A stretch of 64,000 nucleotides of DNA from Trypanosoma brucei (Eukaryota), in NCBI GenBank assembly GCA_000002445.1, contig AL929603.2:416001-480000 (forward strand), in the 5' to 3' direction. This document shows positions 9,787 through 55,417 of the stretch, in pieces. The first letter of the stretch is position 1; each line of letters opens with the position of its first letter. The notes under the pieces are model-generated. The model saw only the letters and a program-made list of their open reading frames with translations. It did not search any database and was not told the DNA's origin. Both the position numbers and the translations under genes were made by a program.

Positions 9787-12240
<2,454 letters not shown>

Positions 12241-31300: not shown

Positions 31301-34300
31301 TGACATTGATGAAGAGCAGCAGCCGCAGGAGCAGCAAACCGAAACCATCATGGACGAGGCACCATGCGCCCCGGAGGACTTCCTAGCGGAGGAATCCCAG
31401 CAACACACTGCGAGGAGTGAAGCTGACATTGATGAAGAGCAGCAGCCGCAGGAGCAGCAAACCGAAACCATCATGGACGAGGCACCATGCGCCCCGGAGG
31501 ACTTCCTAGCGGAGGAATCCCAGCAACACACTGCGAGGAGTGAAGCTGACATTGATGAAGAGCAGCAGCCGCAGGAGCAGCAAACCGAAACCATCATGGA
31601 CGAGGCACCATGCGCCCCGGAGGACTTCCTAGCGGAGGAATCCCAGCAACACACTGCGAGGAGTGAAGCTGACATTGATGAAGAGCAGCAGCCGCAGGAG
31701 CAGCAAACCGAAACCATCATGGACGAGGCACCATGCGCCCCGGAGGACTTCCTAGCGGAGGAATCCCAGCAACACACTGCGAGGAGTGAAGCTGACATTG
31801 ATGAAGAGCAGCAGCCGCAGGAGCAGCAAACCGAAGCCATCATGGACGAGGCACCATGCGCCCCGGAGGACTTCCTAGCGGAGGAATCCCAGCAACACAC
31901 TGCGAGGAGTGAAGCTGACATTGATGAAGAGCAGCAGCCGCAGGAGCAGCAAACCGAAGCCATCATGGACGAGGCACCATGCGCCCCGGAGGACTTCCTA
32001 GCGGAGGAATCCCAGCAACACACTGCGAGGAGTGAAGCTGACATTGATGAAGAGCAGCAGCCGCAGGAGCAGCAAACCGAAACCATCATGGACGAGGCAC
32101 CATGCGCCCCGGAGGACTTCCTAGCGGAGGAATCCCAGCAACACACTGCGAGGAGTGAAGCTGACATTGATGAAGAGCAGCAGCCGCAGGAGCAGCAAAC
32201 CGAAACCATCATGGACGAGGCACCATGCGCCCCGGAGGACTTCCTAGCGGAGGAATCCCAGCAACACACTGCGAGGAGTGAAGCTGACATTGATGAAGAG
32301 CAGCAGCCGCAGGAGCAGCAAACCGAAGCCATCATGGACGAGGCACCATGCGCCCCGGAGGACTTCCTAGCGGAGGAATCCCAGCAACACACTGCGAGGA
32401 GTGAAGCTGACATTGATGAAGAGCAGCAGCCGCAGGAGCAGCAAACCGAAACCATCATGGACGAGGCACCATGCGCCCCGGAGGACTTCCTAGCGGAGGA
32501 ATCCCAGCAACACACTGCGAGGAGTGAAGCTGACATTGATGAAGAGCAGCAGCCGCAGGAGCAGCAAACCGAAACCATCATGGACGAGGCACCATGCGCC
32601 CCGGAGGACTTCCTAGCGGAGGAATCCCAGCAACACACTGCGAGAAGTGAAGCTGACATTGATGAAGAGCAGCAGCCGCAGGAGCAGCAAACCGAAACCA
32701 TCATGGACGAGGCACCATGCGCCCCGGAGGACTTCCTAGCGGAGGAATCCCAGCAACACACTGCGAGAAGTGAAGCTGACATTGATGTAGAGCAGCAGCC
32801 GCAGGAGCAGCAAACCGAAACCATCATGGACGAGGCACCATGCGCCCCGGAGGACTTCCTAGCGGAGGAATCCCAGCAACACACTGCGAGAAGTGAAGCT
32901 GACATTGATGAAGAGCAGCAGCCGCAGGAGCAGCAAACCGAAACCATCATGGACGAGGCACCATGCGCCCCGGAGGACTTCCTAGCGGAGGAATCCCAGC
33001 AACACACTGCGAGGAGTGAAGCTGACATTGATGAAGAGCAGCAGCCGCAGGAGCAGCAAACCGAAACCATCATGGACGAGGCACCATGCGCCCCGGAGGA
33101 CTTCCTAGCGGAGGAATCCCAGCAACACACTGCGAGGAGTGAAGCTGACATTGATGAAGAGCAGCAGCCGCAGGAGCAGCAAACCGAAACCATCATGGAC
33201 GAGGCACCATGCGCCCCGGAGGACTTCCTAGCGGAGGAATCCCAGCAACACACTGCGAGGAGTGAAGCTGACATTGATGAAGAGCAGCAGCCGCAGGAGC
33301 AGCAAACCGAAACCATCATGGACGAGGCACCATGCGCTCCGGAGGACTTCCTAGCGGAGGAATCCCAGCAACACACTGCGAGGAGTGAAGCTGACATTGA
33401 TGAAGAGCAGCAGCCGCAGGAGCAGCAAACCGAAACCATCATGGACGAGGCACCATGCGCTCCGGAGGACTTCCTAGCGGAGGAATCCCAGCAACACACT
33501 GCGAGGAGTGAAGCTGACATTGATGAAGAGCAGCAGCCGCAGGAGCAGCAAACCGAAACCATCATGGACGAGGCACCATGCGCCCCGGAGGACTTCCTAG
33601 CGGAGGAATCCCAGCAACACACTGCGAGGAGTGAAGCTGACATTGATGAAGAGCAGCAGCCGCAGGAGCAGCAAACCGAAACCATCATGGACGAGGCACC
33701 ATGCGCCCCGGAGGACTTCCTAGCGGAGGAATCCCAGCAACACACTGCGAGGAGTGAAGCTGACATTGATGAAGAGCAGCAGCCGCAGGAGCAGCAAACC
33801 GAAGCCATCATGGACGAGGCACCATGCGCTCCGGAGGACTTCCTAGCGGAGGAATCCCAGCAACACACTGCGAGGAGTGAAGCTGGCATTGATGAAGAGC
33901 AGCAGCCGCAGGAGCAGCAAACCGAAACCATCATGGACGAGGCACCATGCGCCCCGGAGGACTTCCTAGCGGAGGAATCCCAGCAACACACTGCGAGGAG
34001 TGAAGCTGACATTGATGAAGAGCAGCAGCCGCAGGAGCAGCAAACCGAAACCATCATGGACGAGGCACCATGCGCTCCGGAGGACTTCCTAGCGGAGGAA
34101 TCCCAGCAACACACTGCGAGGAGTGAAGCTGACATTGATGAAGAGCAGCAGCCGCAGGAGCAGCAAACCGAAACCATCATGGACGAGGCACCATGCGCCC
34201 CGGAGGACTTCCTAGCGGAGGAATCCCAGCAACACACTGCGAGGAGTGAAGCTGACATTGATGAAGAGCAGCAGCCGCAGGAGCAGCAAACCGAAGCCAT

Positions 34301-37300
34301 CATGGACGAGGCACCATGCGCCCCGGAGGACTTCCTAGCGGAGGAATCCCAGCAACACACTGCGAGGAGTGAAGCTGACATTGATGAAGAGCAGCAGCCG
34401 CAGGAGCAGCAAACCGAAGCCATCATGGACGAGGCACCATGCGCCCCGGAGGACTTCCTAGCGGAGGAATCCCAGCAACACACTGCGAGGAGTGAAGCTG
34501 ACATTGATGAAGAGCAGCAGCCGCAGGAGCAGCAAACCGAAGCCATCATGGACGAGGCACCATGCGCCCCGGAGGACTTCCTAGCGGAGGAATCCCAGCA
34601 ACACACTGCGAGGAGTGAAGCTGACATTGATGAAGAGCAGCAGCCGCAGGAGCAGCAAACCGAAACCATCATGGACGAGGCACCATGCGCCCCGGAGGAC
34701 TTCCTAGCGGAGGAATCCCAGCAACACACTGCGAGGAGTGAAGCTGACATTGATGAAGAGCAGCAGCCGCAGGAGCAGCAAACCGAAACCATCATGGACG
34801 AGGCACCATGCGCCCCGGAGGACTTCCTAGCGGAGGAATCCCAGCAACACACTGCGAGGAGTGAAGCTGACATTGATGAAGAGCAGCAGCCGCAGGAGCA
34901 GCAAACCGAAACCATCATGGACGAGGCACCATGCGCCCCGGAGGACTTCCTAGCGGAGGAATCCCAGCAACACACTGCGAGGAGTGAAGCTGACATTGAT
35001 GAAGAGCAGCAGCCGCAGGAGCAGCAAACCGAAACCATCATGGACGAGGCACCATGCGCCCCGGAGGACTTCATAGCGGAGGAATCCCAGCAACACACTG
35101 CGAGGAGTGAAGCTGACATTGATGAAGAGCAGCAGCCGCAGGAGCAGCAAACCGAAGCCATCATGGACGAGGCACCATGCGCCCCGGAGGACTTCATAGC
35201 GGAGGAATCCCAGCAACACACTGCGAGGAGTGAAGCTGACATTGATGAAGAGCAGCAGCCGCAGGAGCAGCAAACCGAAACCATCATGGACGAGGCACCA
35301 TGCGCCCCGGAGGACTTCATAGCGGAGGAATCCCAGCAACACACTGCGAGGAGTGAAGCTGACATTGATGAAGAGCAGCAGCCGCAGGAGCAGCAAACCG
35401 AAACCATCATGGACGAGGCACCATGCGCCCCGGAGGACTTCCTAGCGGAGGAATCCCAGCAACACACTGCGAGGAGTGAAGCTGACATTGATGAAGAGCA
35501 GCAGCCGCAGGAGCAGCAAACCGAAACCATCATGGACGAGGCACCATGCGCCCCGGAGGACTTCCTAGCGGAGGAATCCCAGCAACACACTGCGAGGAGT
35601 GAAGCTGACATTGATGAAGAGCAGCAGCCGCAGGAGCAGCAAACCGAAACCATCATGGACGAGGCACCATGCGCCCCGGAGGACTTCCTAGCGGAGGAAT
35701 CCCAGCAACACACTGCGAGGAGTGAAGCTGACATTGATGAAGAGCAGCAGCCGCAGGAGCAGCAAACCGAAACCATCATGGACGAGGCACCATGCGCCCC
35801 GGAGGACTTCCTAGCGGAGGAATCCCAGCAACACACTGCGAGAAGTGAAGCTGACATTGATGAAGAGCAGCAGCCGCAGGAGCAGCAAACCGAAACCATC
35901 ATGGACGAGGCACCATGCGCCCCGGAGGACTTCCTAGCGGAGGAATCCCAGCAACACACTGCGAGAAGTGAAGCTGACATTGATGTAGAGCAGCAGCCGC
36001 AGGAGCAGCAAACCGAAACCATCATGGACGAGGCACCATGCGCCCCGGAGGACTTCCTAGCGGAGGAATCCCAGCAACACACTGCGAGAAGTGAAGCTGA
36101 CATTGATGAAGAGCAGCAGCCGCAGGAGCAGCAAACCGAAACCATCATGGACGAGGCACCATGCGCCCCGGAGGACTTCCTAGCGGAGGAATCCCAGCAA
36201 CACACTGCGAGAAGTGAAGCTGACATTGATGAAGAGCAGCAGCCGCAGGAGCAGCAAACCGAAACCATCATGGACGAGGCACCATGCGCCCCGGAGGACT
36301 TCCTAGCGGAGGAATCCCAGCAACACACTGCGAGGAGTGAAGCTGACATTGATGAAGAGCAGCAGCCGCAGGAGCAGCAAACCGAAACCATCATGGACGA
36401 GGCACCATGCGCCCCGGAGGACTTCCTAGCGGAGGAATCCCAGCAACACACTGCGAGGAGTGAAGCTGACATTGATGAAGAGCAGCAGCCGCAGGAGCAG
36501 CAAACCGAAACCATCATGGACGAGGCACCATGCGCCCCGGAGGACTTCCTAGCGGAGGAATCCCAGCAACACACTGCGAGGAGTGAAGCTGACATTGATG
36601 AAGAGCAGCAGCCGCAGGAGCAGCAAACCGAAACCATCATGGACGAGGCACCATGCGCCCCGGAGGACTTCATAGCGGAGGAATCCCAGCAACACACTGC
36701 GAGGAGTGAAGCTGACATTGATGAAGAGCAGCAGCCGCAGGAGCAGCAAACCGAAACCATCATGGACGAGGCACCATGCGCCCCGGAGGACTTCATAGCG
36801 GAGGAATCCCAGCAACACACTGCGAGGAGTGAAGCTGACATTGATGAAGAGCAGCAGCCGCAGGAGCAGCAAACCGAAACCATCATGGACGAGGCACCAT
36901 GCGCCCCGGAGGACTTCCTAGCGGAGGAATCCCAGCAACACACTGCGAGGAGTGAAGCTGACATTGATGAAGAGCAGCAGCCGCAGGAGCAGCAAACCGA
37001 AACCATCATGGACGAGGCACCATGCGCCCCGGAGGACTTCCTAGCGGAGGAATCCCAGCAACACACTGCGAGGAGTGAAGCTGACATTGATGAAGAGCAG
37101 CAGCCGCAGGAGCAGCAAACCGAAACCATCATGGACGAGGCACCATGCGCTCCGGAGGACTTCCTAGCGGAGGAATCCCAGCAACACACTGCGAGGAGTG
37201 AAGCTGACATTGATGAAGAGCAGCAGCCGCAGGAGCAGCAAACCGAAACCATCATGGACGAGGCACCATGCGCCCCGGAGGACTTCCTAGCGGAGGAATC

Positions 37301-40300
37301 CCAGCAACACACTGCGAGGAGTGAAGCTGACATTGATGAAGAGCAGCAGCCGCAGGAGCAGCAAACCGAAACCATCATGGACGAGGCACCATGCGCCCCG
37401 GAGGACTTCCTAGCGGAGGAATCCCAGCAACACACTGCGAGGAGTGAAGCTGACATTGATGAAGAGCAGCAGCCGCAGGAGCAGCAAACCGAAACCATCA
37501 TGGACGAGGCACCATGCGCCCCGGAGGACTTCCTAGCGGAGGAATCCCAGCAACACACTGCGAGGAGTGAAGCTGACATTGATGAAGAGCAGCAGCCGCA
37601 GGAGCAGCAAACCGAAGCCATCATGGACGAGGCACCATGCGCCCCGGAGGACTTCCTAGCGGAGGAATCCCAGCAACACACTGCGAGGAGTGAAGCTGAC
37701 ATTGATGAAGAGCAGCAGCCGCAGGAGCAGCAAACCGAAGCCATCATGGACGAGGCACCATGCGCCCCGGAGGACTTCCTAGCGGAGGAATCCCAGCAAC
37801 ACACTGCGAGGAGTGAAGCTGACATTGATGAAGAGCAGCAGCCGCAGGAGCAGCAAACCGAAGCCATCATGGACGAGGCACCATGCGCCCCGGAGGACTT
37901 CCTAGCGGAGGAATCCCAGCAACACACTGCGAGAAGTGAAGCTGACATTGATGAAGAGCAGCAGCCGCAGGAGCAGCAAACCGAAACCATCATGGACGAG
38001 GCACCATGCGCCCCGGAGGACTTCCTAGCGGAGGAATCCCAGCAACACACTGCGAGAAGTGAAGCTGACATTGATGAAGAGCAGCAGCCGCAGGAGCAGC
38101 AAACCGAAACCATCATGGACGAGGCACCATGCGCCCCGGAGGACTTCCTAGCGGAGGAATCCCAGCAACACACTGCGAGGAGTGAAGCTGACATTGATGA
38201 AGAGCAGCAGCCGCAGGAGCAGCAAACCGAAACCATCATGGACGAGGCACCATGCGCCCCGGAGGACTTCCTAGCGGAGGAATCCCAGCAACACACTGCG
38301 AGAAGTGAAGCTGACATTGATGAAGAGCAGCAGCCGCAGGAGCAGCAAACCGAAACCATCATGGACGAGGCACCATGCGCCCCGGAGGACTTCCTAGCGG
38401 AGGAATCCCAGCAACACACTGCGAGAAGTGAAGCTGACATTGATGAAGAGCAGCAGCCGCAGGAGCAGCAAACCGAAACCATCATGGACGAGGCACCATG
38501 CGCCCCGGAGGACTTCCTAGCGGAGGAATCCCAGCAACACACTGCGAGGAGTGAAGCTGACATTGATGAAGAGCAGCAGCCGCAGGAGCAGCAAACCGAA
38601 ACCATCATGGACGAGGCACCATGCGCCCCGGAGGACTTCCTAGCGGAGGAATCCCAGCAACACACTGCGAGGAGTGAAGCTGACATTGATGAAGAGCAGC
38701 AGCCGCAGGAGCAGCAAACCGAAACCATCATGGACGAGGCACCATGCGCCCCGGAGGACTTCCTAGCGGAGGAATCCCAGCAACACACTGCGAGAAGTGA
38801 AGCTGACATTGATGAAGAGCAGCAGCCGCAGGAGCAGCAAACCGAAACCATCATGGACGAGGCACCATGCGCCCCGGAGGACTTCCTAGCGGAGGAATCC
38901 CAGCAACACACTGCGAGGAGTGAAGCTGACATTGATGAAGAGCAGCAGCCGCAGGAGCAGCAAACCGAAACCATCATGGACGAGGCACCATGCGCCCCGG
39001 AGGACTTCCTAGCGGAGGAATCCCAGCAACACACTGCGAGGAGTGAAGCTGACATTGATGAAGAGCAGCAGCCGCAGGAGCAGCAAACCGAACCCATCAT
39101 GGACGAGGCACCATGCGCCCCGGAGGACTTCCTAGCGGAGGAATCCCAGCAACACACTGCGAGGAGTGAAGCTGACATTGATGAAGAGCAGCAGCCGCAG
39201 GAGCAGCAAACCGAAGCCATCATGGACGAGGCACCATGCGCCCCGGAGGACTTCCTAGCGGAGGAATCCCAGCAACACACTGCGAGGAGTGAAGCTGACA
39301 TTGATGAAGAGCAGCAGCCGCAGGAGCAGCAAACCGAAGCCATCATGGACGAGGCACCATGCGCCCCGGAGGACTTCCTAGCGGAGGAATCCCAGCAACA
39401 CACTGCGAGGAGTGAAGCTGACATTGATGAAGAGCAGCAGCCGCAGGAGCAGCAAACCGAAGCCATCATGGACGAGGCACCATGCGCCCCGGAGGACTTC
39501 CTAGCGGAGGAATCCCAGCAACACACTGCGAGGAGTGAAGCTGACATTGATGAAGAGCAGCAGCCGCAGGAGCAGCAAACCGAAACCATCATGGACGAGG
39601 CACCATGCGCCCCGGAGGACTTCCTAGCGGAGGAATCCCAGCAACACACTGCGAGGAGTGAAGCTGACATTGATGAAGAGCAGCAGCCGCAGGAGCAGCA
39701 AACCGAAACCATCATGGACGAGGCACCATGCGCCCCGGAGGACTTCCTAGCGGAGGAATCCCAGCAACACACTGCGAGGAGTGAAGCTGACATTGATGAA
39801 GAGCAGCAGCCGCAGGAGCAGCAAACCGAAACCATCATGGACGAGGCACCATGCGCCCCGGAGGACTTCCTAGCGGAGGAATCCCAGCAACACACTGCGA
39901 GGAGTGAAGCTGACATTGATGAAGAGCAGCAGCCGCAGGAGCAGCAAACCGAAGCCATCATGGACGAGGCACCATGCGCCCCGGAGGACTTCATAGCGGA
40001 GGAATCCCAGCAACACACTGCGAGGAGTGAAGCTGACATTGATGAAGAGCAGCAGCCGCAGGAGCAGCAAACCGAAACCATCATGGACGAGGCACCATGC
40101 GCCCCGGAGGACTTCCTAGCGGAGGAATCCCAGCAACACACTGCGAGGAGTGAAGCTGACATTGATGAAGAGCAGCAGCCGCAGGAGCAGCAAACCGAAA
40201 CCATCATGGACGAGGCACCATGCGCCCCGGAGGACTTCCTAGCGGAGGAATCCCAGCAACACACTGCGAGAAGTGAAGCTGACATTGATGTAGAGCAGCA

Positions 40301-43300
40301 GCCGCAGGAGCAGCAAACCGAAACCATCATGGACGAGGCACCATGCGCCCCGGAGGACTTCCTAGCGGAGGAATCCCAGCAACACACTGCGAGAAGTGAA
40401 GCTGACATTGATGAAGAGCAGCAGCCGCAGGAGCAGCAAACCGAAACCATCATGGACGAGGCACCATGCGCCCCGGAGGACTTCCTAGCGGAGGAATCCC
40501 AGCAACACACTGCGAGGAGTGAAGCTGACATTGATGAAGAGCAGCAGCCGCAGGAGCAGCAAACCGAAACCATCATGGACGAGGCACCATGCGCCCCGGA
40601 GGACTTCCTAGCGGAGGAATCCCAGCAACACACTGCGAGAAGTGAAGCTGACATTGATGAAGAGCAGCAGCCGCAGGAGCAGCAAACCGAAACCATCATG
40701 GACGAGGCACCATGCGCCCCGGAGGACTTCCTAGCGGAGGAATCCCAGCAACACACTGCGAGGAGTGAAGCTGACATTGATGAAGAGCAGCAGCCGCAGG
40801 AGCAGCAAACCGAAACCATCATGGACGAGGCACCATGCGCCCCGGAGGACTTCCTAGCGGAGGAATCCCAGCAACACACTGCGAGGAGTGAAGCTGACAT
40901 TGATGAAGAGCAGCAGCCGCAGGAGCAGCAAACCGAAACCATCATGGACGAGGCACCATGCGCCCCGGAGGACTTCCTAGCGGAGGAATCCCAGCAACAC
41001 ACTGCGAGGAGTGAAGCTGACATTGATGAAGAGCAGCAGCCGCAGGAGCAGCAAACCGAAACCATCATGGACGAGGCACCATGCGCCCCGGAGGACTTCC
41101 TAGCGGAGGAATCCCAGCAACACACTGCGAGGAGTGAAGCTGACATTGATGAAGAGCAGCAGCCGCAGGAGCAGCAAACCGAAACCATCATGGACGAGGC
41201 ACCATGCGCCCCGGAGGACTTCCTAGCGGAGGAATCCCAGCAACACACTGCGAGGAGTGAAGCTGACATTGATGAAGAGCAGCAGCCGCAGGAGCAGCAA
41301 ACCGAAGCCATCATGGACGAGGCACCATGCGCCCCGGAGGACTTCCTAGCGGAGGAATCCCAGCAACACACTGCGAGGAGTGAAGCTGACATTGATGAAG
41401 AGCAGCAGCCGCAGGAGCAGCAAACCGAAGCCATCATGGACGAGGCACCATGCGCCCCGGAGGACTTCCTAGCGGAGGAATCCCAGCAACACACTGCGAG
41501 GAGTGAAGCTGACATTGATGAAGAGCAGCAGCCGCAGGAGCAGCAAACCGAAGCCATCATGGACGAGGCACCATGCGCCCCGGAGGACTTCATAGCGGAG
41601 GAATCCCAGCAACACACTGCGAGGAGTGAAGCTGACATTGATGAAGAGCAGCAGCCGCAGGAGCAGCAAACCGAAACCATCATGGACGAGGCACCATGCG
41701 CCCCGGAGGACTTCATAGCGGAGGAATCCCAGCAACACACTGCGAGGAGTGAAGCTGACATTGATGAAGAGCAGCAGCCGCAGGAGCAGCAAACCGAAAC
41801 CATCATGGACGAGGCACCATGCGCCCCGGAGGACTTCCTAGCGGAGGAATCCCAGCAACACACTGCGAGAAGTGAAGCTGACATTGATGAAGAGCAGCAG
41901 CCGCAGGAGCAGCAAACCGAAACCATCATGGACGAGGCACCATGCGCCCCGGAGGACTTCCTAGCGGAGGAATCCCAGCAACACACTGCGAGGAGTGAAG
42001 CTGACATTGATGAAGAGCAGCAGCCGCAGGAGCAGCAAACCGAAACCATCATGGACGAGGCACCATGCGCCCCGGAGGACTTCCTAGCGGAGGAATCCCA
42101 GCAACACACTGCGAGAAGTGAAGCTGACATTGATGAAGAGCAGCAGCCGCAGGAGCAGCAAACCGAAACCATCATGGACGAGGCACCATGCGCCCCGGAG
42201 GACTTCCTAGCGGAGGAATCCCAGCAACACACTGCGAGGAGTGAAGCTGACATTGATGAAGAGCAGCAGCCGCAGGAGCAGCAAACCGAAACCATCATGG
42301 ACGAGGCACCATGCGCTCCGGAGGACTTCCTAGCGGAGGAATCCCAGCAACACACTGCGAGGAGTGAAGCTGACATTGATGAAGAGCAGCAGCCGCAGGA
42401 GCAGCAAACCGAAACCATCATGGACGAGGCACCATGCGCCCCGGAGGACTTCCTAGCGGAGGAATCCCAGCAACACACTGCGAGGAGTGAAGCTGACATT
42501 GATGAAGAGCAGCAGCCGCAGGAGCAGCAAACCGAAACCATCATGGACGAGGCACCATGCGCCCCGGAGGACTTCCTAGCGGAGGAATCCCAGCAACACA
42601 CTGCGAGGAGTGAAGCTGACATTGATGAAGAGCAGCAGCCGCAGGAGCAGCAAACCGAAACCATCATGGACGAGGCACCATGCGCTCCGGAGGACTTCCT
42701 AGCGGAGGAATCCCAGCAACACACTGCGAGGAGTGAAGCTGACATTGATGAAGAGCAGCAGCCGCAGGAGCAGCAAACCGAAACCATCATGGACGAGGCA
42801 CCATGCGCTCCGGAGGACTTCCTAGCGGAGGAATCCCAGCAACACACTGCGAGGAGTGAAGCTGACATTGATGAAGAGCAGCAGCCGCAGGAGCAGCAAA
42901 CCGAAACCATCATGGACGAGGCACCATGCGCTCCGGAGGACTTCCTAGCGGAGGAATCCCAGCAACACACTGCGAGGAGTGAAGCTGACATTGATGAAGA
43001 GCAGCAGCCGCAGGAGCAGCAAACCGAAACCATCATGGACGAGGCACCATGCGCCCCGGAGGACTTCCTAGCGGAGGAATCCCAGCAACACACTGCGAGG
43101 AGTGAAGCTGACATTGATGAAGAGCAGCAGCCGCAGGAGCAGCAAACCGAAACCATCATGGACGAGGCACCATGCGCCCCGGAGGACTTCATAGCGGAGG
43201 AATCCCAGCAACACACTGCGAGGAGTGAAGCTGACATTGATGAAGAGCAGCAGCCGCAGGAGCAGCAAACCGAAACCATCATGGACGAGGCACCATGCGC

Positions 43301-46300
43301 CCCGGAGGACTTCATAGCGGAGGAATCCCAGCAACACACTGCGAGGAGTGAAGCTGACATTGATGAAGAGCAGCAGCCGCAGGAGCAGCAAACCGAAACC
43401 ATCATGGACGAGGCACCATGCGCCCCGGAGGACTTCATAGCGGAGGAATCCCAGCAACACACTGCGAGGAGTGAAGCTGACATTGATGAAGAGCAGCAGC
43501 CGCAGGAGCAGCAAACCGAAACCATCATGGACGAGGCACCATGCGCCCCGGAGGACTTCATAGCGGAGGAATCCCAGCAACACACTGCGAGGAGTGAAGC
43601 TGACATTGATGAAGAGCAGCAGCCGCAGGAGCAGCAAACCGAAACCATCATGGACGAGGCACCATGCGCCCCGGAGGACTTCATAGCGGAGGAATCCCAG
43701 CAACACACTGCGAGGAGTGAAGCTGACATTGATGAAGAGCAGCAGCCGCAGGAGCAGCAAACCGAAGCCATCATGGACGAGGCACCATGCGCTCCGGAGG
43801 ACTTCATAGCGGAGGAATCCCAGCAACACACTGCGAGGAGTGAAGCTGACATTGATGAAGAGCAGCAGCCGCAGGAGCAGCAAACCGAAGCCATCATGGA
43901 CGAGGCACCATGCGCCCCGGAGGACTTCCTAGCGGAGGAATCCCAGCAACACACTGCGAGGAGTGAAGCTGACATTGATGAAGAGCAGCAGCCGCAGGAG
44001 CAGCAAACCGAAACCATCATGGACGAGGCACCATGCGCCCCGGAGGACTTCCTAGCGGAGGAATCCCAGCAACACACTGCGAGGAGTGAAGCTGACATTG
44101 ATGAAGAGCAGCAGCCGCAGGAGCAGCAAACCGAAACCATCATGGACGAGGCACCATGCGCCCCGGAGGACTTCATAGCGGAGGAATCCCAGCAACACAC
44201 TGCGAGGAGTGAAGCTGACATTGATGAAGAGCAGCAGCCGCAGGAGCAGCAAACCGAAACCATCATGGACGAGGCACCATGCGCCCCGGAGGACTTCCTA
44301 GCGGAGGAATCCCAGCAACACACTGCGAGGAGTGAAGCTGACATTGATGAAGAGCAGCAGCCGCAGGAGCAGCAAACCGAAACCATCATGGACGAGGCAC
44401 CATGCGCCCCGGAGGACTTCCTAGCGGAGGAATCCCAGCAACACACTGCGAGGAGTGAAGCTGACATTGATGAAGAGCAGCAGCCGCAGGAGCAGCAAAC
44501 CGAAACCATCATGGACGAGGCACCATGCGCTCCGGAGGACTTCCTAGCGGAGGAATCCCAGCAACACACTGCGAGGAGTGAAGCTGACATTGATGAAGAG
44601 CAGCAGCCGCAGGAGCAGCAAACCGAAACCATCATGGACGAGGCACCATGCGCCCCGGAGGACTTCCTAGCGGAGGAATCCCAGCAACACACTGCGAGGA
44701 GTGAAGCTGACATTGATGAAGAGCAGCAGCCGCAGGAGCAGCAAACCGAAGCCATCATGGACGAGGCACCATGCGCCCCGGAGGACTTCCTAGCGGAGGA
44801 ATCCCAGCAACACACTGCGAGGAGTGAAGCTGACATTGATGAAGAGCAGCAGCCGCAGGAGCAGCAAACCGAAGCCATCATGGACGAGGCACCATGCGCC
44901 CCGGAGGACTTCCTAGCGGAGGAATCCCAGCAACACACTGCGAGGAGTGAAGCTGACATTGATGAAGAGCAGCAGCCGCAGGAGCAGCAAACCGAAACCA
45001 TCATGGACGAGGCACCATGCGCTCCGGAGGACTTCCTAGCGGAGGAATCCCAGCAACACACTGCGAGGAGTGAAGCTGACATTGATGAAGAGCAGCAGCC
45101 GCAGGAGCAGCAAACCGAAGCCATCATGGACGAGGCACCATGCGCCCCGGAGGACTTCCTAGCGGAGGAATCCCAGCAACACACTGCGAGGAGTGAAGCT
45201 GACATTGATGAAGAGCAGCAGCCGCAGGAGCAGCAAACCGAAACCATCATGGACGAGGCACCATGCGCCCCGGAGGACTTCCTAGCGGAGGAATCCCAGC
45301 AACACACTGCGAGGAGTGAAGCTGACATTGATGAAGAGCAGCAGCCGCAGGAGCAGCAAACCGAAACCATCATGGACGAGGCACCATGCGCCCCGGAGGA
45401 CTTCATAGCGGAGGAATCCCAGCAACACACTGCGAGGAGTGAAGCTGACATTGATGAAGAGCAGCAGCCGCAGGAGCAGCAAACCGAAACCATCATGGAC
45501 GAGGCACCATGCGCCCCGGAGGACTTCATAGCGGAGGAATCCCAGCAACACACTGCGAGGAGTGAAGCTGACATTGATGAAGAGCAGCAGCCGCAGGAGC
45601 AGCAAACCGAAACCATCATGGACGAGGCACCATGCGCCCCGGAGGACTTCCTAGCGGAGGAATCCCAGCAACACACTGCGAGGAGTGAAGCTGACATTGA
45701 TGAAGAGCAGCAGCCGCAGGAGCAGCAAACCGAAACCATCATGGACGAGGCACCATGCGCCCCGGAGGACTTCCTAGCGGAGGAATCCCAGCAACACACT
45801 GCGAGGAGTGAAGCTGACATTGATGAAGAGCAGCAGCCGCAGGAGCAGCAAACCGAAACCATCATGGACGAGGCACCATGCGCTCCGGAGGACTTCCTAG
45901 CGGAGGAATCCCAGCAACACACTGCGAGGAGTGAAGCTGACATTGATGAAGAGCAGCAGCCGCAGGAGCAGCAAACCGAAACCATCATGGACGAGGCACC
46001 ATGCGCTCCGGAGGACTTCCTAGCGGAGGAATCCCAGCAACACACTGCGAGGAGTGAAGCTGACATTGATGAAGAGCAGCAGCCGCAGGAGCAGCAAACC
46101 GAAACCATCATGGACGAGGCACCATGCGCTCCGGAGGACTTCCTAGCGGAGGAATCCCAGCAACACACTGCGAGGAGTGAAGCTGACATTGATGATGAGC
46201 TAGGTAAGATTGTGAATCTGTTTATAGTGGAAGAGAAGTGTAGAAGGAGTATTATTGAAGATACTGAGTTTTGTATGCGTAATATTTTCTCCGACGTTTT

Positions 46301-50912: not shown

Positions 50913-51236
50913 ATGAATAACGCATTGGATCCGGCAAAGGCACCACAATTTCTTGATATGATGTTGCGCCGCAATAAAATGGTAATGGTGTCCGCCACGT
51001 ATTGTCAGTTCTGCACAAAACTGAAGATGTTACTGATTGAACTCAAACACCGTTTCGTTTCACTTGAAATTGATATTATTCCCAACGGTCGTGAAGTGTT
51101 TGCAGAAGTGGTGGGACGCACGGGTGTACATACGGTGCCTCAAGTTTTTCTTAATGGGAAGTATTTTGGCGGTTATGATGAACTTGTTGCAATGTACCGG
51201 GCAGGGCACCTTTCAGCCGAAATTGAAAGGGGCTGA
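50913..51236 (+). CDS. 2-C-Grx2: dithiol glutaredoxin with a CQFC active site (2-C-Grx2 type), 107 aa
   Basis: The CQFC active site (YCQFCTK) is followed by TVPQVFLNGKYFGGYDEL, the glutaredoxin GSH-binding and cis-Pro region. The ORF track begins at a TTG (50841). The first ATG (MNNALDP) is at 50913, directly after T-tract 50841-50895 and the AG. Confidence 0.8.
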   Translation: MNNALDPAKAPQFLDMMLRRNKMVMVSATYCQFCTKLKMLLIELKHRFVSLEIDIIPNGREVFAEVVGRTGVHTVPQVFLNGKYFGGYDELVAMYRAGHLSAEIERG

Positions 51237-51711
51237 AGAGGTAATTATTGTTTATGTATTGTGAGCATAGGCGTAACGAAATATATATTTATGTGTATGT
51301 TCACTTCGATGGAGCGTACAGCTGTAATGTTTAATTGTCTCATTTTGAGACGGGCAGTGGTCATTTGGCTTTTTGCTGTTGTTGTTATTGTTGTTGTTTT
51401 TTTTTCTTATGTTTTTTTTTGTTTCTTCTGTCACCACTTTCTTTCTTTCTTTCTTTCTTTCATCGTTCCATAGAAATTTGAACGATGATGTGGAAAGGGA
51501 GGATTGTGTGGAGAAAATGAGGCACACGAACATGGAAGTTTGTTAATAGGTATTCATACTCACACATGTATTTGTATGGCGTGCACATCTCGCTGATTCT
51601 CTGTTTTGGTTTTATTTGTTGTTGTATGCTGCTCGGCAGGGGAAGGGAGAAAAAAGAAAAACAAAGAGCAGAAACATTTTGGTTGTCCTGTTGGTCGCAT
51701 TATTCGATGCA

Positions 51712-51735
51712 TGTGTGTGTGTGTGTGTGTGTGTG
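51712..51735. repeat. (GT)12 microsatellite
   Basis: tgtgtgtgtgtgtgtgtgtgtgtg, downstream of the glutaredoxin CDS. Confidence 0.9.
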
Positions 51736-51768
51736 GTCTTCCGTCTCCCCTCACTTCCTCACGCATGC

Positions 51769-51770
<2 letters not shown>

Positions 51771-51858
<88 letters not shown>
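51771..51858. repeat. (TTA)29 perfect trinucleotide microsatellite
   Basis: 88 bp of uninterrupted ttattatta. It generates spurious poly-Tyr/Ile/Leu ORFs in the track. Confidence 0.95.
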
Positions 51859-52195
51859 GGTGCACCTGTGTGTTATTTGTCATGTGCATTTATTATCTTC
51901 GATCCGTCCACTATTATTTCCTTTCTCGTTTTGCGTTATTTGTACACTAAAAGTTGCTATTGCTCTAGCAATTGTGTATTAATTAATTTATTTATTTATT
52001 CGGCTACTGATATCATCATTGCATTCTTACTTCATCCCCCTAATTCTGCTTGTCAGGTGTGCATCCAAACGTTTACTTAGAGACAAGCGAGTCAAATACT
52101 GGCATTTATATTTATATATTTATATATTTATATATATTCTGATTTGACTGACAGAGCCCTTGAAATTACACGGACTACCTCCTACGGCCAACTCG

Positions 52196-52879
52196 ATGGG
52201 AATTTATTCCGACACTGATGATGACTCTCCCATCGGGATTGAGGTGGTAGGCGAGGCGAGTTCTGATTCGGAAGAACCAAACCCCCATTCAACCACAAAG
52301 CGAAAAGTTTCCGGGGCTGTAGACCATAATAATGGTTATAATCAAAAAAAAAACAAGCGGAGGCGGTTAAAAAATAAATGGGAGGAAAACCCTCAGCTGC
52401 ACGAAACGCCGGATGAGGAGCAAATTAGCAACGTTAAAAAGCGTGTTTATGTGTTGGACACATGTTCTATTGTTGAGCACATTGAGTGGTCAATTTTGGA
52501 GGAAGTTGCCAAGTATTACTTGATTATCATACCAAAGAAAGTGATGGACGAATTAGGAAAAATGGAAGGGGGAAGGGGAAGTACATGCAACAGGGTGTTG
52601 AACAAACTGGAGAATGAGCACACGAGTAACAAAATGAATGTTGGCTTCCGTTTGCAGCGCAAAAATGATAAGGACAAAAATGTTTTGTCTGCAGCTCGTG
52701 TGAATGACGATCACATTCTTTCGTGTGCATGTTCCTTCCGTAACGAACATGATGTCGTATTAGTTACGAGTGATAATATATTGAAACTGAAGGCATATGC
52801 AGAGGGCATACCGACAGTATCGACGCTCAAAGACGTCACCCGACTGACTAATGGTTTAAGAGGTGGGAAATTTGAATGA
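52196..52879 (+). CDS. PIN-domain (SMG6/Swt1-type ribonuclease fold) protein, paralogue 1
   Basis: Shows KRVYVLDTCSIVEH...IIIPKKVMDEL...ND.HILSCA...HDVVLVTSDNILKLKA. The acidic residues sit at the canonical PIN positions (D in VLDT, E in DEL, D in TSD). The ORF track starts at a TTG (52160), and the first ATG is at 52196. Confidence 0.65.
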   Translation: MGIYSDTDDDSPIGIEVVGEASSDSEEPNPHSTTKRKVSGAVDHNNGYNQKKNKRRRLKNKWEENPQLHETPDEEQISNVKKRVYVLDTCSIVEHIEWSILEEVAKYYLIIIPKKVMDELGKMEGGRGSTCNRVLNKLENEHTSNKMNVGFRLQRKNDKDKNVLSAARVNDDHILSCACSFRNEHDVVLVTSDNILKLKAYAEGIPTVSTLKDVTRLTNGLRGGKFE

Positions 52880-53691
52880 GAATGTTCCCAGTTATCCCTT
52901 TATTCGTTTGCATTAAACCCTTTCGCGCTTGTTTGACTGTTTGGCTACGGTTTTTTTAGGAGGGAAGAGGGGCTCGCCTAAAGGAAAAAAGATATGAAAA
53001 GAAAAAAAAAGGAAAGAAAGAGAGAAGAAAGAGTAGGGGCGGAAGCGAGGAGGAGTTTACCCGCAACCTCCACGAGTGCGCATGCACATGAGGGAAAAGA
53101 GAAATGTGCGTGTGAAGCTCACGTCACCGCTTGTTTTTTTTTCTTTTCTCAGTCACAACTTCCTCCGTTGTATGCTTGTACACGCATACATTTATTTGCT
53201 CATTTATTGAATTACTTCATGCTTTCGACACTTCAACCTCCCACCTCCTCCCACTTATCACGGAATGCAAAAAAAAAAAAAGAAAGAAACGCCTTTGTTG
53301 TGATGGTGAGTGGCGTACCTCAACATCTTCCCTTCCCTTCTCTTCTCTTCTCGTGCTGTGTCGTGTCGTGTCTCGCTGTTTCTCTTCTTATTGTTGTGAT
53401 TGGCATTTATATGTATGTATATTTATAAATATATATATATATATGTTTGTGTGTGTCTCTGTGATATCATCATCTCTTCACCGCAGTCGCCGTTATTTCT
53501 TCGTTTTGCTTTCTGCTATCACCGCGCAAATTCAGATGCGTGGTAATTACAGTTTTTAGTGACATAACCTCGTTGGCTTTAAAAAGAACAGATAAACCAA
53601 GTGAAAAACGAAAGGCAACGTCACTAAAAAGGAAAGCTTAATTACATCCCGGGTGCTAATTAGGTTTTTTCCTATGCATTTACATGGGTAT

Positions 53692-53727
53692 GTGAGTGAG
53701 TGAGTGAGTGAGTGAGTGAGTGAGTGA
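53692..53727. repeat. (GTGA)9 tetranucleotide microsatellite
   Basis: tgtgagtgagtgagtgagtgagtgagtgagtgagtg. Confidence 0.9.
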
Positions 53728-54271
53728 CAGGGAATAAAAGATTGTTGAACTCAACTGAAAAACACACATCGAAATATTCTCCAACTCTCTTTACAGTTCT
53801 CTTACTGCTCCCCGCTCGTGTGGAAATATATAATGTCTCACATAAAGGCAGAGAAATTTTTAACAAACAAATTAATTTGTTTAGTTTTCTGCTTTTATGA
53901 TTTGAAAACGAAAAAAAGATCTTTATGGAAACTACACGGCCAAGTAGTCGGTTGTTCTTCTCTTTGCCTTTTGTGTATTTGCTCACACGGTTTTTGCATC
54001 TGAACATTCTGATCTCACATCACCGAATAATTGTTACACAATTTTTTTCTCTCCCCTTCCGCCTCTCTTTCTTGCGACTGGTTCCTCGCTTCTTTTTTTT
54101 TGTTTGTTTGTTCGCTTAGTTAGCGCCCACAAGTGAAGGAGGGCGAGTTGTGGGCCTGTAAGTGGTACTTTAGATTGCACGTCGGTAGTTGCTTCTGATC
54201 TGCGTATTGCAACTTTCGTGTTGTAAAATAGATTGCGGTAGTACTAGCAGTGGGTTTTTGCCCTGTGCGCG

Positions 54272-55417
54272 ATGGATAATAGCACGGAACTTGGGCCTTT
54301 AAATTCACCTGGCAACATCTTTACTTCTCATGGTGAGGGTAACAGTATTGGCACTTCGTCTCCGCCACATCCGCATTCTACAGAGAGTACGGGTGATAAT
54401 AATGAGTTTATGAACCCACACAATATAGTTTCCAGTCATATGCCTTCACGTGAGGGGTCTGTTTTTGTGAATCGACATCCCCCTGAGAGGCCGGTGGAGA
54501 CTCTCGAAAAAGACGATCAAAACCGATCCTACCTGTACTCGCCGGCTCCAACTACCGACTGCAATGAATCTGTGAACTTTGTTTGCATGCAAGAGGCAGC
54601 AGCAGCAGGATTGCAAACTCCAATTGTACCGGCTGCGTCATCATCAATAAGTCAACACACCGCAGCAGAATCTAAAAGTGTCCACTCCACTGAAAATAAC
54701 AATGACTTCGTGAAAGTGTTCACGACTAGCAAAGGCAGTCATAAAGGGGGAAGATTGGAGGCGTTGCGGCGGATTTCCAATAAGCACAAAACATTCATTG
54801 GACTTACGACGATCACGCCACAGCAACGAAACACCAATGACTGCATTAACCGAAGTATTAATGCCAGTGCACCCAACGAACTTTCGCGTGCGGGCGATAA
54901 CGGTGCTGTTACCAATCCTGGGGGCACAAAACTGGTGCACAGTGTTCCTGTAAAACAGTTGCAACCCCAAGTATCTCATATTGTGCTCGATACATGCAGT
55001 TTGCTGCGGGTTGGGCCACTCCAGTTGGCATGTCTCATGAGGAGGGCCGTTGTGTGCCTGCCACATGGAGTTTTACATGAAATGGACTCGTGGAACCATG
55101 TAGCCAAAAAATATGAAGATGAAATCAGCAGGAAGCGGGCGTTTGTTGCTCGTCGCATACGTACTTGGGTGCACTACGCTACCAAATATAAGGCAAGCAT
55201 ACGTCTTCAGGCGATGAATGAGGTGAACACTGCGTTTGACAAACATGTGCAGAGGAATGATATGGCAATTCTTGGTTTTGCGGTGTTCCTGGAACGTAAT
55301 GAAAAGACTTTGGTGGAATTTGTGACAGATGATACATACCTTTCCCTGACAGCGGCCCAAGAGTTAAAAGGTGTAGTCCGAACAACAAAAGGTTTATTGG
55401 ATTATTACGGGTGCTAA
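54272..55417 (+). CDS. PIN-domain protein, paralogue 2 (381 aa), with an N-terminal Ser/Thr/Pro-rich extension
   Basis: The C-terminal half VSHIVLDTCSLLRVGPL...CLPHGVLHEMD...NDMAILGFA...LVEFVTDDTYLSL aligns motif-for-motif with the upstream paralogue. Confidence 0.65.
   Translation: MDNSTELGPLNSPGNIFTSHGEGNSIGTSSPPHPHSTESTGDNNEFMNPHNIVSSHMPSREGSVFVNRHPPERPVETLEKDDQNRSYLYSPAPTTDCNESVNFVCMQEAAAAGLQTPIVPAASSSISQHTAAESKSVHSTENNNDFVKVFTTSKGSHKGGRLEALRRISNKHKTFIGLTTITPQQRNTNDCINRSINASAPNELSRAGDNGAVTNPGGTKLVHSVPVKQLQPQVSHIVLDTCSLLRVGPLQLACLMRRAVVCLPHGVLHEMDSWNHVAKKYEDEISRKRAFVARRIRTWVHYATKYKASIRLQAMNEVNTAFDKHVQRNDMAILGFAVFLERNEKTLVEFVTDDTYLSLTAAQELKGVVRTTKGLLDYYGC

What the first reader, a model, noticed from the sequence alone, without database searches (positions are those of the whole stretch)
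52196..55417. Two adjacent, divergent PIN-domain paralogues in tandem
Both ORFs carry a C-terminal PIN domain with the same motif order ((V/Y)VLDTCS(I/L)...(I/L)P..V..E(L/M)D...ND..IL.(C/F)A...V(L/E)(V/F)VT(S/D)D). They differ completely in their N-terminal extensions (acidic and short versus Ser/Thr/Pro-rich and long) and are only about 30-35% identical in the domain. That is an old duplication followed by subfunctionalisation. PIN nucleases of this SMG6/Swt1-like type act in mRNA surveillance and quality control. Kinetoplastids lack canonical SMG6, so a lineage-specific PIN pair is a reasonable candidate for uncharacterised RNA decay or processing factors.
Basis: partly seen in the sequence, partly recalled or inferred. 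Interest (0 to 1): 0.6.

Follow-up and report, generated by a model that had tools for sequence, protein, structure and literature searches.

The report
Two neighbouring trypanosome PIN RNA nucleases
The two adjacent genes are real SMG6-type PIN nuclease genes of Trypanosoma brucei: the downstream one is ESB2, already published as the RNA endonuclease that trims expression-site transcripts, and the upstream one is its conserved, apparently active and still unstudied neighbour.

Summary
Window 52196-52879 (+, 227 aa) and 54272-55417 (+, 381 aa) each carry a C-terminal Pfam PIN_4 domain (E=1.8e-20 and 1.5e-10). They align at 28% identity (BLASTP E=8e-8). All four catalytic acidic residues are present in both.

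The window is Trypanosoma brucei-group chromosome 1. The downstream gene is Tb927.1.1820. Published tagging primers for that gene match the window exactly at both ends of the ORF. It is ESB2, shown in 2025/2026 to be a Mg-dependent RNA endonuclease of the expression-site body that lowers ESAG transcripts. So that half of the finding is already known.

The upstream gene is Tb927.1.1790 by gene order. No paper in the library mentions it in its main text. It has a disordered acidic N-terminus and a confidently modelled PIN domain. The closest solved structure is the human SMG6 PIN domain.

The order Grx2, short PIN, long PIN is conserved in six further Trypanosoma species. Angomonas has an ESB2 orthologue preceded by a degenerate PIN-like gene. 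The pair is therefore ancient. A strict sister relationship between the two genes is not resolved.

Neither gene is an SMG6 or Swt1 orthologue, because only the PIN domain is shared. Interest is modest: a known kind, with one uncharacterised member.

The parts
52196..52879 (+). ORF1: short PIN protein of 227 aa, inferred to be Tb927.1.1790. It is annotated 'PIN domain containing protein, putative' and is uncharacterised.
   Evidence: ORF list. It is 100% identical to a T. equiperdum / T. brucei protein. A gene is called with the same limits in L001. It is the only gene between Grx2 (Tb927.1.1770) and ESB2 (Tb927.1.1820), and published gene tables list only Tb927.1.1790 there.
52196..52435 (+). 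ORF1 N-terminal region, aa 1-80: acidic Ser/Asp/Glu-rich, with a basic KKKNKRRRLKNK run at aa 51-62. Predicted disordered.
   Evidence: The AlphaFold2 model has pLDDT 52-57 over aa 1-80 and no secondary structure there. The region aligns poorly among Trypanosoma orthologues.
52448..52822 (+). ORF1 PIN_4 domain (Pfam aa 85-209; the modelled fold spans aa 81-222). Catalytic codons: D88 at 52457-52459, E119 at 52550-52552, D171 at 52706-52708, D193 at 52772-52774.
   Evidence: Pfam E=1.8e-20. Model pLDDT is 84-98 over most of the domain, with one dip to about 70 at aa 141-150. The top Foldseek hit is the human SMG6 PIN domain 2hww, E=1.5e-7. D88, T89, E119, D171, T191 and D193 are invariant over 28-32 aligned sequences.
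52880..54271 (.). Intergenic region of 1.39 kb between the two PIN genes. It has UTRs, polypyrimidine tracts and a (GTGA)n run near 53693-53727.
   Evidence: Sequence read. No remnant of the longer ESB2 N-terminus seen in other trypanosomes was found here by HMM or tblastn.
54272..55417 (+). ORF2 = ESB2 (Tb927.1.1820), 381 aa: the expression-site-body-specific RNA endonuclease.
   Evidence: TrypTag primers for Tb927.1.1820 match 54193-54271 and 55335-55414 with no mismatches. Residues D240, T241, S243, E270, D330, T352, D353 and D354 match the numbering in PMC13056571.
54272..54979 (+). ESB2 N-terminal low-complexity region, aa 1-236, rich in Ser/Thr/Pro/Asn.
   Evidence: No Pfam hit. It does not align with the 400-460 aa N-terminal regions of the T. 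vivax, T. grayi, T. conorhini and T. theileri orthologues.
54980..55360 (+). ESB2 PIN_4 domain (Pfam aa 237-363). Catalytic codons: D240 at 54989-54991, E270 at 55079-55081, D330 at 55259-55261, D353 at 55328-55330.
   Evidence: Pfam E=1.5e-10. It is 39-43% identical to the PIN domains of other trypanosome orthologues. In vitro endonuclease activity and D240A/D330A/D353A mutants are reported in PMC13056571.
50913..51236 (+). Glutaredoxin 2 gene (Tb927.1.1770). It anchors the conserved order Grx2, short PIN, long PIN and is not functionally part of the pair.
   Evidence: Pfam Glutaredoxin E=1.3e-11. A 107-aa Grx gene lies directly upstream of the pair in T. equiperdum, T. vivax, T. conorhini, T. 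theileri and T. grayi. Tb927.1.1770 occurs in the text of a paper on T. brucei glutaredoxin 2 (Grx2), PMC5975080.

Best explanation
These are two co-oriented genes in a T. brucei polycistronic unit. Each encodes a metal-dependent endoribonuclease of the SMG6-type PIN fold (Pfam PIN_4).

The downstream gene is ESB2 (Tb927.1.1820). According to published experiments it cleaves RNA in a Mg-dependent way. It is concentrated at the expression-site body of bloodstream forms through a VEX2, ESAP1, ESB3 hierarchy. [quoted passage not shown]

The upstream gene (Tb927.1.1790 by inference) is a minimal version: a disordered acidic N-terminus followed by a PIN domain. That domain keeps every catalytic and near-catalytic residue in seven Trypanosoma species. 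I infer that it is also an active single-strand RNA endonuclease, and that its specificity comes from a partner or from its location rather than from its own sequence.

The pair is an ancient arrangement, conserved throughout the genus Trypanosoma and probably older. It most likely arose by tandem duplication. ESB2 is the faster-evolving, N-terminally elaborated copy, and in African trypanosomes it was recruited to the expression site.

Shown: the domain identity, the residues, the synteny, and the ESB2 identity and function (the last from the literature). Inferred: ORF1 activity, the duplication itself, and which copy is the derived one.
For: - **Domains.** Both ORFs match PIN_4.
- **ESB2 identity.** Tagging primers match exactly, and the residue numbering is identical to the paper.
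- **ESB2 function.** Taken from PMC13056571. It was annotated 'PIN nuclease domain protein' and is translationally up-regulated in bloodstream forms (PMC4210626).
- **ORF1 fold.** The AlphaFold2 PIN domain has pLDDT 84-98 over most of the domain. The best solved match is the SMG6 PIN domain, E=1.5e-7, TM 0.73. A profile of kinetoplastid PIN domains hits the SMG6 PIN domain at E=3.8e-12 over the whole domain.
- **ORF1 conservation.** D88, T89, E119, D171, T191 and D193 are invariant. There are 31 invariant columns among the seven Trypanosoma orthologues, including NDDHIL.CA..F and LKA.AEG.
- **Homology of the two genes.** hhalign probability 99%, E=3e-18. They share the G.RLQ and NDD.IL motifs, which the bacterial PIN_4 hits lack.
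- **Synteny.** Short PIN followed by long PIN is found in T. equiperdum, T. vivax, T. conorhini, T. theileri, T. grayi and T. congolense.
- **Outside Trypanosoma.** The Angomonas deanei ESB2-type gene scores 110.9 bits on the ESB2 profile against 73.2 on the ORF1 profile. It is preceded by a 238-aa gene that hits the kinetoplastid PIN profile at E=4.5e-6.
- **Which copy is derived.** The ESB2 profile scores SMG6 at only 19.3 bits, against 39.7 bits for the ORF1 profile.
- **Expression.** Tb927.1.1790 mRNA is expressed at levels similar to ESB2. It is unchanged by ESB2 knock-down (logFC -0.06) or overexpression.
Against: - No experiment on ORF1 was found, and no paper in the library mentions Tb927.1.1790 in its main text.
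- The ID Tb927.1.1790 rests on gene order, not on a sequence match.
- Direct ORF1 to ESB2 similarity is weak: 7-9 bits by phmmer. ORF1 scores bacterial PIN_4 domains higher, at 35-45 bits.
- In the NJ tree the ORF1 clade (55% support) and the ESB2 clade are not exclusive sisters. PIN proteins fused to TPR repeats, from unidentified organisms, fall closer to ESB2.
- Outside Trypanosoma the genomic context differs (DRC11/AAA, PIN, DRMBL, RanBP1, SPRY).
- The Angomonas upstream gene is only weakly PIN-like: hhalign probability 53% and no Pfam hit.
- Intact catalytic residues do not prove activity.
Confidence: 0.8

Rival explanations
1. ORF1 is not a working nuclease. It would be a PIN-fold adaptor, like SMG5 or yeast Nmd4, that binds a helicase such as UPF1 or another decay factor and recruits it.
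For: Yeast Nmd4 (bound to Upf1) and SMG5 PIN domains appear among the structural matches, at E=7e-5 and E=2e-3. ORF1 is a small stand-alone PIN protein, like Nmd4. T. brucei keeps UPF1 and UPF2 but has no recognised SMG5-7 protein (PMC6173133).
Against: All four acidic residues and the flanking Thr residues are invariant across every orthologue. SMG5 lacks catalytic residues (PIN classification paper). The best structural match is the catalytically active SMG6.
Confidence: 0.12
2. The two genes are not products of a tandem duplication. They would be two independently retained PIN_4 lineages that merely lie next to each other.
For: Direct similarity is very low: 7-9 bits by phmmer and 28% identity. 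ORF1 is as close to SMG6 and to bacterial PIN_4 domains as it is to ESB2. The NJ tree gives no supported ORF1+ESB2 clade. In Angomonas and in two unassigned contigs the ESB2-type gene sits in a different gene neighbourhood.
Against: Adjacency in the same order and orientation is kept in seven Trypanosoma genomes. A PIN-like gene also precedes the ESB2 orthologue in Angomonas. Another contig (L009) has two tandem PIN_4 genes. The ESB2 profile scores ORF1 proteins (27-49 bits) above SMG6 (19.3 bits). The two share the G.RLQ motif.
Confidence: 0.2
3. ORF1 works together with ESB2, for example as a PIN-PIN heterodimer or a regulator, at the expression-site body.
For: Adjacency is conserved, both are expressed in bloodstream forms, and PIN domains commonly dimerise (general knowledge). 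The ESB2 authors suggest that an unknown partner may direct or activate ESB2.
Against: Tb927.1.1790 occurs only in RNA-seq tables of the ESB2 paper's stored supplements, not among the proximity-labelling hits. Those files were truncated when stored, so this is weak evidence. Gene adjacency carries no co-regulation signal in trypanosome polycistrons. ORF1 is also conserved in trypanosomes that have no ESAGs or ESB3.
Confidence: 0.08

Closest known systems
ESB2 (Tb927.1.1820), expression-site-body-specific RNA endonuclease of T. brucei (Lansink et al., Nat Microbiol 2026, PMC13056571; bioRxiv 2025)
   Same: The downstream ORF is this gene. The published tagging primers match it exactly, it is 381 aa long, and it has the same catalytic residue numbers.
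   Different: Nothing differs for ORF2. The paper never uses the stems 'paralog' or 'duplicat' and does not discuss the adjacent PIN gene.
Human SMG6 (EST1A) PIN domain, PDB 2hww/2dok: the NMD endonuclease
   Same: Same Pfam family (PIN_4) and the same four acidic residues (D1251, E1282, D1353, D1392). It is the best sequence-profile match (E=3.8e-12) and the best structural match (E=1.5e-7). It shares the NNDD(L/H)ILSC motif with ORF1.
   Different: SMG6 is about 1400 aa, with EJC-binding motifs and a 14-3-3-like/TPR domain that binds phospho-UPF1 (general knowledge). ORF1 and ESB2 have only disordered N-termini. ESB2 acts in the nucleus on expression-site transcripts, not in NMD.
Yeast/human Swt1, the nuclear-pore-associated PIN_4 endoribonuclease
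   Same: It is a member of PIN_4 and is linked to nuclear mRNP quality control (PIN classification paper).
   Different: Swt1 carries a further C-terminal (HEPN-type) domain (general knowledge; PMC3710099 is listed). Both trypanosome proteins end just after the PIN domain. No Swt1 sequence was compared here.
Yeast Nmd4 and SMG5 PIN domains (non-catalytic or accessory PIN proteins in NMD)
   Same: Nmd4 has a small stand-alone PIN architecture. Both are structural matches, at E=7e-5 and E=2e-3.
   Different: SMG5 lacks catalytic residues. ORF1 keeps all of them.

Membership tests
Pfam PIN_4 (PF13638; PIN_4.COG1875 group of the PIN-like superfamily) | HMM score above the curated gathering threshold (21.9 bits) | tested here: met
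   ORF1 scores 74 bits and ORF2 41.9 bits. The orthologues also match: T. vivax 62.2 bits and T. theileri 51.4 bits.
Pfam PIN_4 (PF13638; PIN_4.COG1875 group of the PIN-like superfamily) | Four conserved acidic active-site residues (SMG6 D1251, E1282, D1353, D1392) | tested here: met
   ORF1 has D88, E119, D171 and D193. ESB2 has D240, E270, D330 and D353. These columns are invariant across 28-32 aligned sequences.
Pfam PIN_4 (PF13638; PIN_4.COG1875 group of the PIN-like superfamily) | PIN alpha/beta/alpha fold | tested here: met
   The ORF1 AlphaFold2 model has alternating strand and helix elements over aa 83-222, with pLDDT 84-98 over most of the domain. Foldseek probability is 1.00 to the SMG6, Dis3 and archaeal PIN domains. 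This is a prediction only. The ESB2 fold was modelled by the authors of PMC13056571.
Pfam PIN_4 (PF13638; PIN_4.COG1875 group of the PIN-like superfamily) | Metal-dependent endoribonuclease activity | not testable with these tools
   For ESB2, activity was shown in vitro (dependent on Mg, inhibited by EDTA) in PMC13056571. No data exist for ORF1.
ESB2 (Tb927.1.1820) | Sequence identity with the published gene | tested here: met
   Both 79-80 nt TrypTag primers for Tb927.1.1820 match with no mismatches, flanking the start codon and ending at the last codon. Eight residue numbers agree with the paper.
SMG6 orthologue (NMD endonuclease) | N-terminal 14-3-3-like/TPR phospho-UPF1-binding domain combined with a C-terminal PIN domain | tested here: not met
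   No domain other than PIN_4 was detected in either protein. The ORF1 N-terminus is predicted disordered. The ESB2 authors state that the two proteins are not homologues beyond the PIN domain.
SMG6 orthologue (NMD endonuclease) | Function in UPF1-dependent nonsense-mediated decay | not testable with these tools
   The literature reports that T. brucei has only UPF1 and UPF2 and no clear NMD (PMC6173133). ESB2 acts on ESAG transcripts.
Swt1 orthologue | PIN domain followed by a C-terminal HEPN-type domain | tested here: not met
   Both proteins end 5-20 residues after the PIN domain, and there is no second Pfam domain. The Swt1 architecture is from general knowledge.
Tandem paralogue pair (one duplication) | The two genes are each other's closest relatives, and their adjacency is conserved | tested here: inconclusive
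   Adjacency is conserved in seven Trypanosoma genomes. Homology is certain (hhalign 99%). An exclusive sister relationship is not supported in the NJ tree, where that node is under 50%.

The most novel reading that the evidence does not exclude
Tb927.1.1790, the short upstream PIN protein, would be the conservative, generalist copy of an ancient kinetoplastid PIN pair. It would be an active SMG6-like endonuclease that starts decay of ordinary trypanosome mRNAs or nuclear precursor RNAs. That would make it a candidate for the so far unassigned endonucleolytic step in kinetoplastid mRNA turnover. ESB2 would then be its specialised offshoot, captured by the VSG expression site.
Probability: 0.12. 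Interest if true: 0.6.

Novelty: new member of a known kind. Interest (0 to 1): 0.3.

Why it matters
Trypanosomes control gene expression almost entirely after transcription, and they lack recognisable SMG5/6/7 proteins. The few SMG6-type PIN nucleases they do have are therefore of real interest. One of this pair, ESB2, has just been shown to fine-tune virulence-gene (ESAG) expression at the VSG expression site.

The ESB2 paper does not mention that ESB2 has a conserved, catalytically intact homologue immediately upstream, present throughout the genus. This gives a natural comparison partner. It can be used to ask how ESB2 acquired its expression-site specificity, and whether the neighbour carries out a more general RNA-decay function. 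The gain is incremental, because the protein family, the fold and the chemistry are all known.

Tried and rejected
- **Word-indexed homologue searches.** Searches with either protein, and with a 12-sequence alignment, returned almost only self-hits. Orthologues had to come from the exhaustive HMMER search.
- **Single-sequence AlphaFold2 of ORF1.** It was useless, with pLDDT 36.6. It was redone with a 28-sequence alignment.
- **AFDB50 fold search.** The library was unavailable, so Leishmania, Bodo and other eukaryotic structural neighbours could not be listed.
- **Remnant of a longer ESB2 N-terminus.** I looked in the 1.39-kb intergenic region and in the T. brucei N-terminus by HMM and tblastn. 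Nothing scored better than E=0.3.
- **Shared gene neighbours between Angomonas and T. brucei.** None were found.
- **A possible third, split PIN-like gene on contig L009** (the 189-aa and 78-aa genes), suspected by eye. No profile supported it, so I dropped it.
- **Literature and localisation for Tb927.1.1790.** No paper in the library mentions it in its main text. The TrypTag supplement is stored truncated and does not include it.
- **Phage, plasmid and bacterial tools, and a toxin-antitoxin (VapC) reading.** These are not relevant for a eukaryotic chromosome.
Full report
**1. The observation**

The region holds two co-oriented ORFs: 52196-52879 (227 aa from the first ATG) and 54272-55417 (381 aa). 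Both match Pfam PIN_4 (PF13638) in their C-terminal halves, far above the gathering score. ORF1 scores 74 bits (E=1.8e-20) over aa 85-209. ORF2 scores 41.9 bits (E=1.5e-10) over aa 237-363.

BLASTP between them gives 28% identity over 166 columns, E=8e-8. The N-termini are unrelated. The only numerical correction is 28% identity rather than 30-35%.

**2. Where the window comes from, and what the genes are**

ORF1 is 100% identical to a protein of T. equiperdum / T. brucei carried on a 1,064,672-bp contig. ORF2 is 100% identical to a T. brucei gambiense protein clustered with the TREU927 and T. equiperdum entries.

A 2026 Nature Microbiology paper (PMC13056571; preprint 2025) describes ESB2 = Tb927.1.1820. 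It is a PIN-domain protein with key residues D240, T241, S243, E270, D330, T352, D353 and D354. ORF2 has exactly these residues at these positions.

The TrypTag primer sequences published for Tb927.1.1820 match the window with no mismatches at 54193-54271, directly upstream of the ATG, and at 55335-55414, the last 80 nt of the coding sequence. ORF2 is therefore ESB2.

The glutaredoxin ORF at 50913-51236 corresponds to Grx2, Tb927.1.1770. Gene tables in the ESB2 paper list only Tb927.1.1790 between 1770 and 1820. ORF1 is the only credible gene there, so ORF1 = Tb927.1.1790. This is an inference from gene order.

No paper in the library mentions Tb927.1.1790 in its main text. The ESB2 paper never uses the stems 'paralog' or 'duplicat'.

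**3. What is known about ESB2 (from the literature, not tested here)**

ESB2 was found by VEX2 proximity labelling and localises specifically to the expression-site body of bloodstream forms. Its recombinant nuclease domain (aa 95 to the C-terminus) cleaves RNA in a way that depends on time, concentration and Mg. D240A could not be made homozygous. A D240A/D330A/D353A mutant loses ESB localisation. Depletion raises ESAG transcripts.

**4. ORF1 anatomy**

An exhaustive HMMER search of 1.84 billion representative proteins found only 31 hits at E<=1e-3. The best are orthologues in T. vivax (47% identity), T. congolense, T. grayi, T. conorhini, T. melophagium and T. theileri.

Among these seven proteins 31 columns are invariant. 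They include D88, T89, E119, D171, D172, T191 and D193, and the blocks G.R.Q, DDHIL.CA..F and L.LKA.AEG. The N-terminal 40-130 residues are acidic, Ser-rich and barely alignable.

With a 28-sequence alignment, AlphaFold2 gives a PIN domain over aa 81-222 with pLDDT 84-98 over most of it, and a disordered N-terminus with pLDDT about 55. The best solved structural match is the human SMG6 PIN domain (2hww, E=1.5e-7, target TM 0.73). It is followed by Dis3 PIN, archaeal PIN domains, Nmd4 and SMG5.

A profile of twelve kinetoplastid-type PIN domains hits the SMG6 PIN domain at E=3.8e-12 over the whole domain. The four acidic residues align with SMG6 D1251, E1282, D1353 and D1392.

**5. Is it a tandem duplication?**

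*Synteny.* The order Grx(107 aa), short PIN, long PIN on one strand is found in the species below. In T. congolense only the PIN pair was seen on the contig.

| Species | Locus | Short PIN (aa) | Long PIN (aa) |
|---|---|---|---|
| T. equiperdum | L001 | 227 | 381 |
| T. vivax | L002/L003 | 203 | 610 |
| T. conorhini | L006 | 192 | 589 |
| T. theileri | L007 | 302 | 631 |
| T. grayi | L008 | 202 | 573 |
| T. congolense | L013 | 199 | 506 |

The long genes are ESB2 orthologues. They are 39-43% identical to T. brucei ESB2, but only across the PIN domain.

*Outside the genus.* Angomonas deanei has a 333-aa protein that scores 110.9 bits on the ESB2 profile against 73.2 on the ORF1 profile. It joins the ESB2 clade with 80% bootstrap support. 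It sits in a different neighbourhood: DRC11/AAA, a 238-aa gene, PIN, a DRMBL-like gene, RanBP1, SPRY.

The 238-aa gene immediately upstream has no Pfam hit. It does match the generic kinetoplastid PIN profile at E=4.5e-6 and the ORF1 alignment by hhalign (probability 53%, E=1.4e-4). It keeps three of the four acidic residues but lacks the Glu. This suggests a degenerate ORF1-like copy.

An unassigned metagenome contig with the same DRMBL/RanBP1/SPRY context carries two tandem PIN_4 genes. Another has a single one.

*Homology.* Profiles of the two orthologue sets align with hhalign probability 99%, E=3e-18.

*Closeness.* Here the evidence is less clear.

| Comparison | Score (bits) |
|---|---|
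| ORF1 vs ESB2, direct phmmer | 7-9 |
| ORF1 vs bacterial PIN_4 | 35-45 |
| ORF1 profile vs SMG6 | 39.7 |
| ORF1 profile vs ESB2 proteins | 32-54 |
| ESB2 profile vs SMG6 | 19.3 |
| ESB2 profile vs ORF1 proteins | 27-49 |

In a 138-column neighbour-joining tree the ESB2 clade has 98% support and the ORF1 clade 55%. No node with at least 50% support unites them exclusively. TPR-PIN proteins from unidentified organisms fall nearer ESB2.

My reading is that this is an old tandem duplication, at least as old as the genus and probably as old as trypanosomatids. ESB2 is the fast-evolving copy and ORF1 the conservative one. The sister relationship itself remains unproven.

**6. A T. brucei peculiarity**

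ESB2 is 381 aa in T. brucei but 506-631 aa in the other trypanosomes examined. The N-terminal regions do not align, and no remnant of a longer N-terminus is detectable in the 1.39-kb intergenic region. Whether this shortening relates to recruitment to the expression site is unknown.

**7. Mechanism**

For ESB2, the published mechanism is metal-dependent endonucleolytic cleavage of nascent or processed ESAG RNA. Specificity comes from confinement at the expression-site body.

For ORF1, I infer the same chemistry, with acidic residues coordinating Mg or Mn, acting on single-stranded RNA. As with other eukaryotic PIN proteins, specificity would come from partners or location. The conserved acidic, Ser-rich disordered N-terminus is the likely interaction or regulatory module.

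ORF1 mRNA is expressed in bloodstream forms at levels comparable to ESB2. It is unaffected by ESB2 knock-down or overexpression.

The alternatives are a non-catalytic adaptor like Nmd4 or SMG5, a cofactor of ESB2, or unrelated neighbours. Each is listed with its evidence under the rival explanations.

**8. Comparison with known families**

Both proteins are members of Pfam PIN_4. This is the group that contains SMG6, SMG5, Swt1 and bacterial PhoH2/VapC-type PIN domains. They work like SMG6 at the level of the catalytic domain.

They are not SMG6 or Swt1 orthologues, because no accessory domain is present. T. brucei is reported to have only UPF1 and UPF2 and no clear NMD.

**9. Verdict**

Half of it (ESB2) is already published and functionally explained. 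The other half is an uncharacterised but ordinary-looking member of the same family.

The new elements are modest. The ESB2 paper does not mention that ESB2 has a conserved, catalytically intact neighbour and homologue across Trypanosoma. The pair probably predates the genus. T. brucei ESB2 has a shortened N-terminus.

Interest is about 0.3. Novelty: new member of a known kind.

Noticed in passing
window 25389-46853 (+); repeat array 26786-46200: A giant 7154-aa ORF. Most of it is about 158 tandem copies of a 123-bp (41-aa) unit that are 99% identical (TETIMDEAPCAPEDFLAEESQQHTARSEADIDEEQQPQEQQ). It gives the region GC 0.58 and AT skew +0.49. By gene order it is probably Tb927.1.1740, which has very low RNA-seq counts. 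The 6534-aa antisense ORF at 26585-46189 is a by-product of the repeat having no stop codons in a reverse frame.
   Followed up: partly
window 54272-54979, compared with L002, L006, L007, L008 and L013: The T. brucei ESB2 N-terminal region is about 235 aa. In T. congolense, T. vivax, T. grayi, T. conorhini and T. theileri it is about 360-470 aa (total protein length 506-631 aa). The sequences do not align, and no remnant is found upstream in the window.
   Followed up: yes
L004 9036-9752 (Angomonas deanei), directly upstream of the ESB2-type gene at 10001-11002: A 238-aa gene with no Pfam hit looks like a degenerate PIN domain (LIFDHFS, LRFQ, YDMRLLVSCAVYY, VLVLGSD). It hits the kinetoplastid PIN profile at E=4.5e-6 and has lost the catalytic Glu. 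It may be a pseudo-nuclease counterpart of ORF1.
   Followed up: partly
L009 1302-3030 (ENA metagenome contig ERZ21831265) and L010 5628-6284 (Logan SRR34068980): These are unassigned contigs with a kinetoplastid-like layout: all listed genes on one strand and short spacers. They share the Angomonas context (DRC11/AAA, PIN, DRMBL-like, RanBP1, SPRY). One carries two tandem ESB2-like PIN_4 genes (284 and 240 aa). The other carries a single PIN (218 aa) that scores about equally on the ORF1 and ESB2 profiles. The source organisms are unknown.
   Followed up: partly
P0008 and P0015 (JGI metagenome proteins of 403 and 322 aa): In both proteins a PIN_4 domain of the same subtype sits at the C-terminus. 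P0008 has TPR repeats (STI1-like) before it. P0015 has a Pro-rich N-terminus instead. They cluster near the ESB2 group in the NJ tree. The TPR+PIN layout of P0008 loosely recalls SMG6. The source organisms are unknown.
   Followed up: no
window 51713-51735, 51773-51858 and 53693-53727: Microsatellites in the intergenic regions: (TG)n, a run of about 29 ATT units, and (GTGA)n. They generate several spurious low-complexity ORFs in the ORF list (for example 51560-51889 on the minus strand).
   Followed up: no
window 9787-12240 (+): An 817-aa ORF with a weak RNase III domain hit (E=6.4e-5, below the gathering score). By chromosomal position it could be an RNA-editing endonuclease-type gene. Not examined further.
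   Followed up: no
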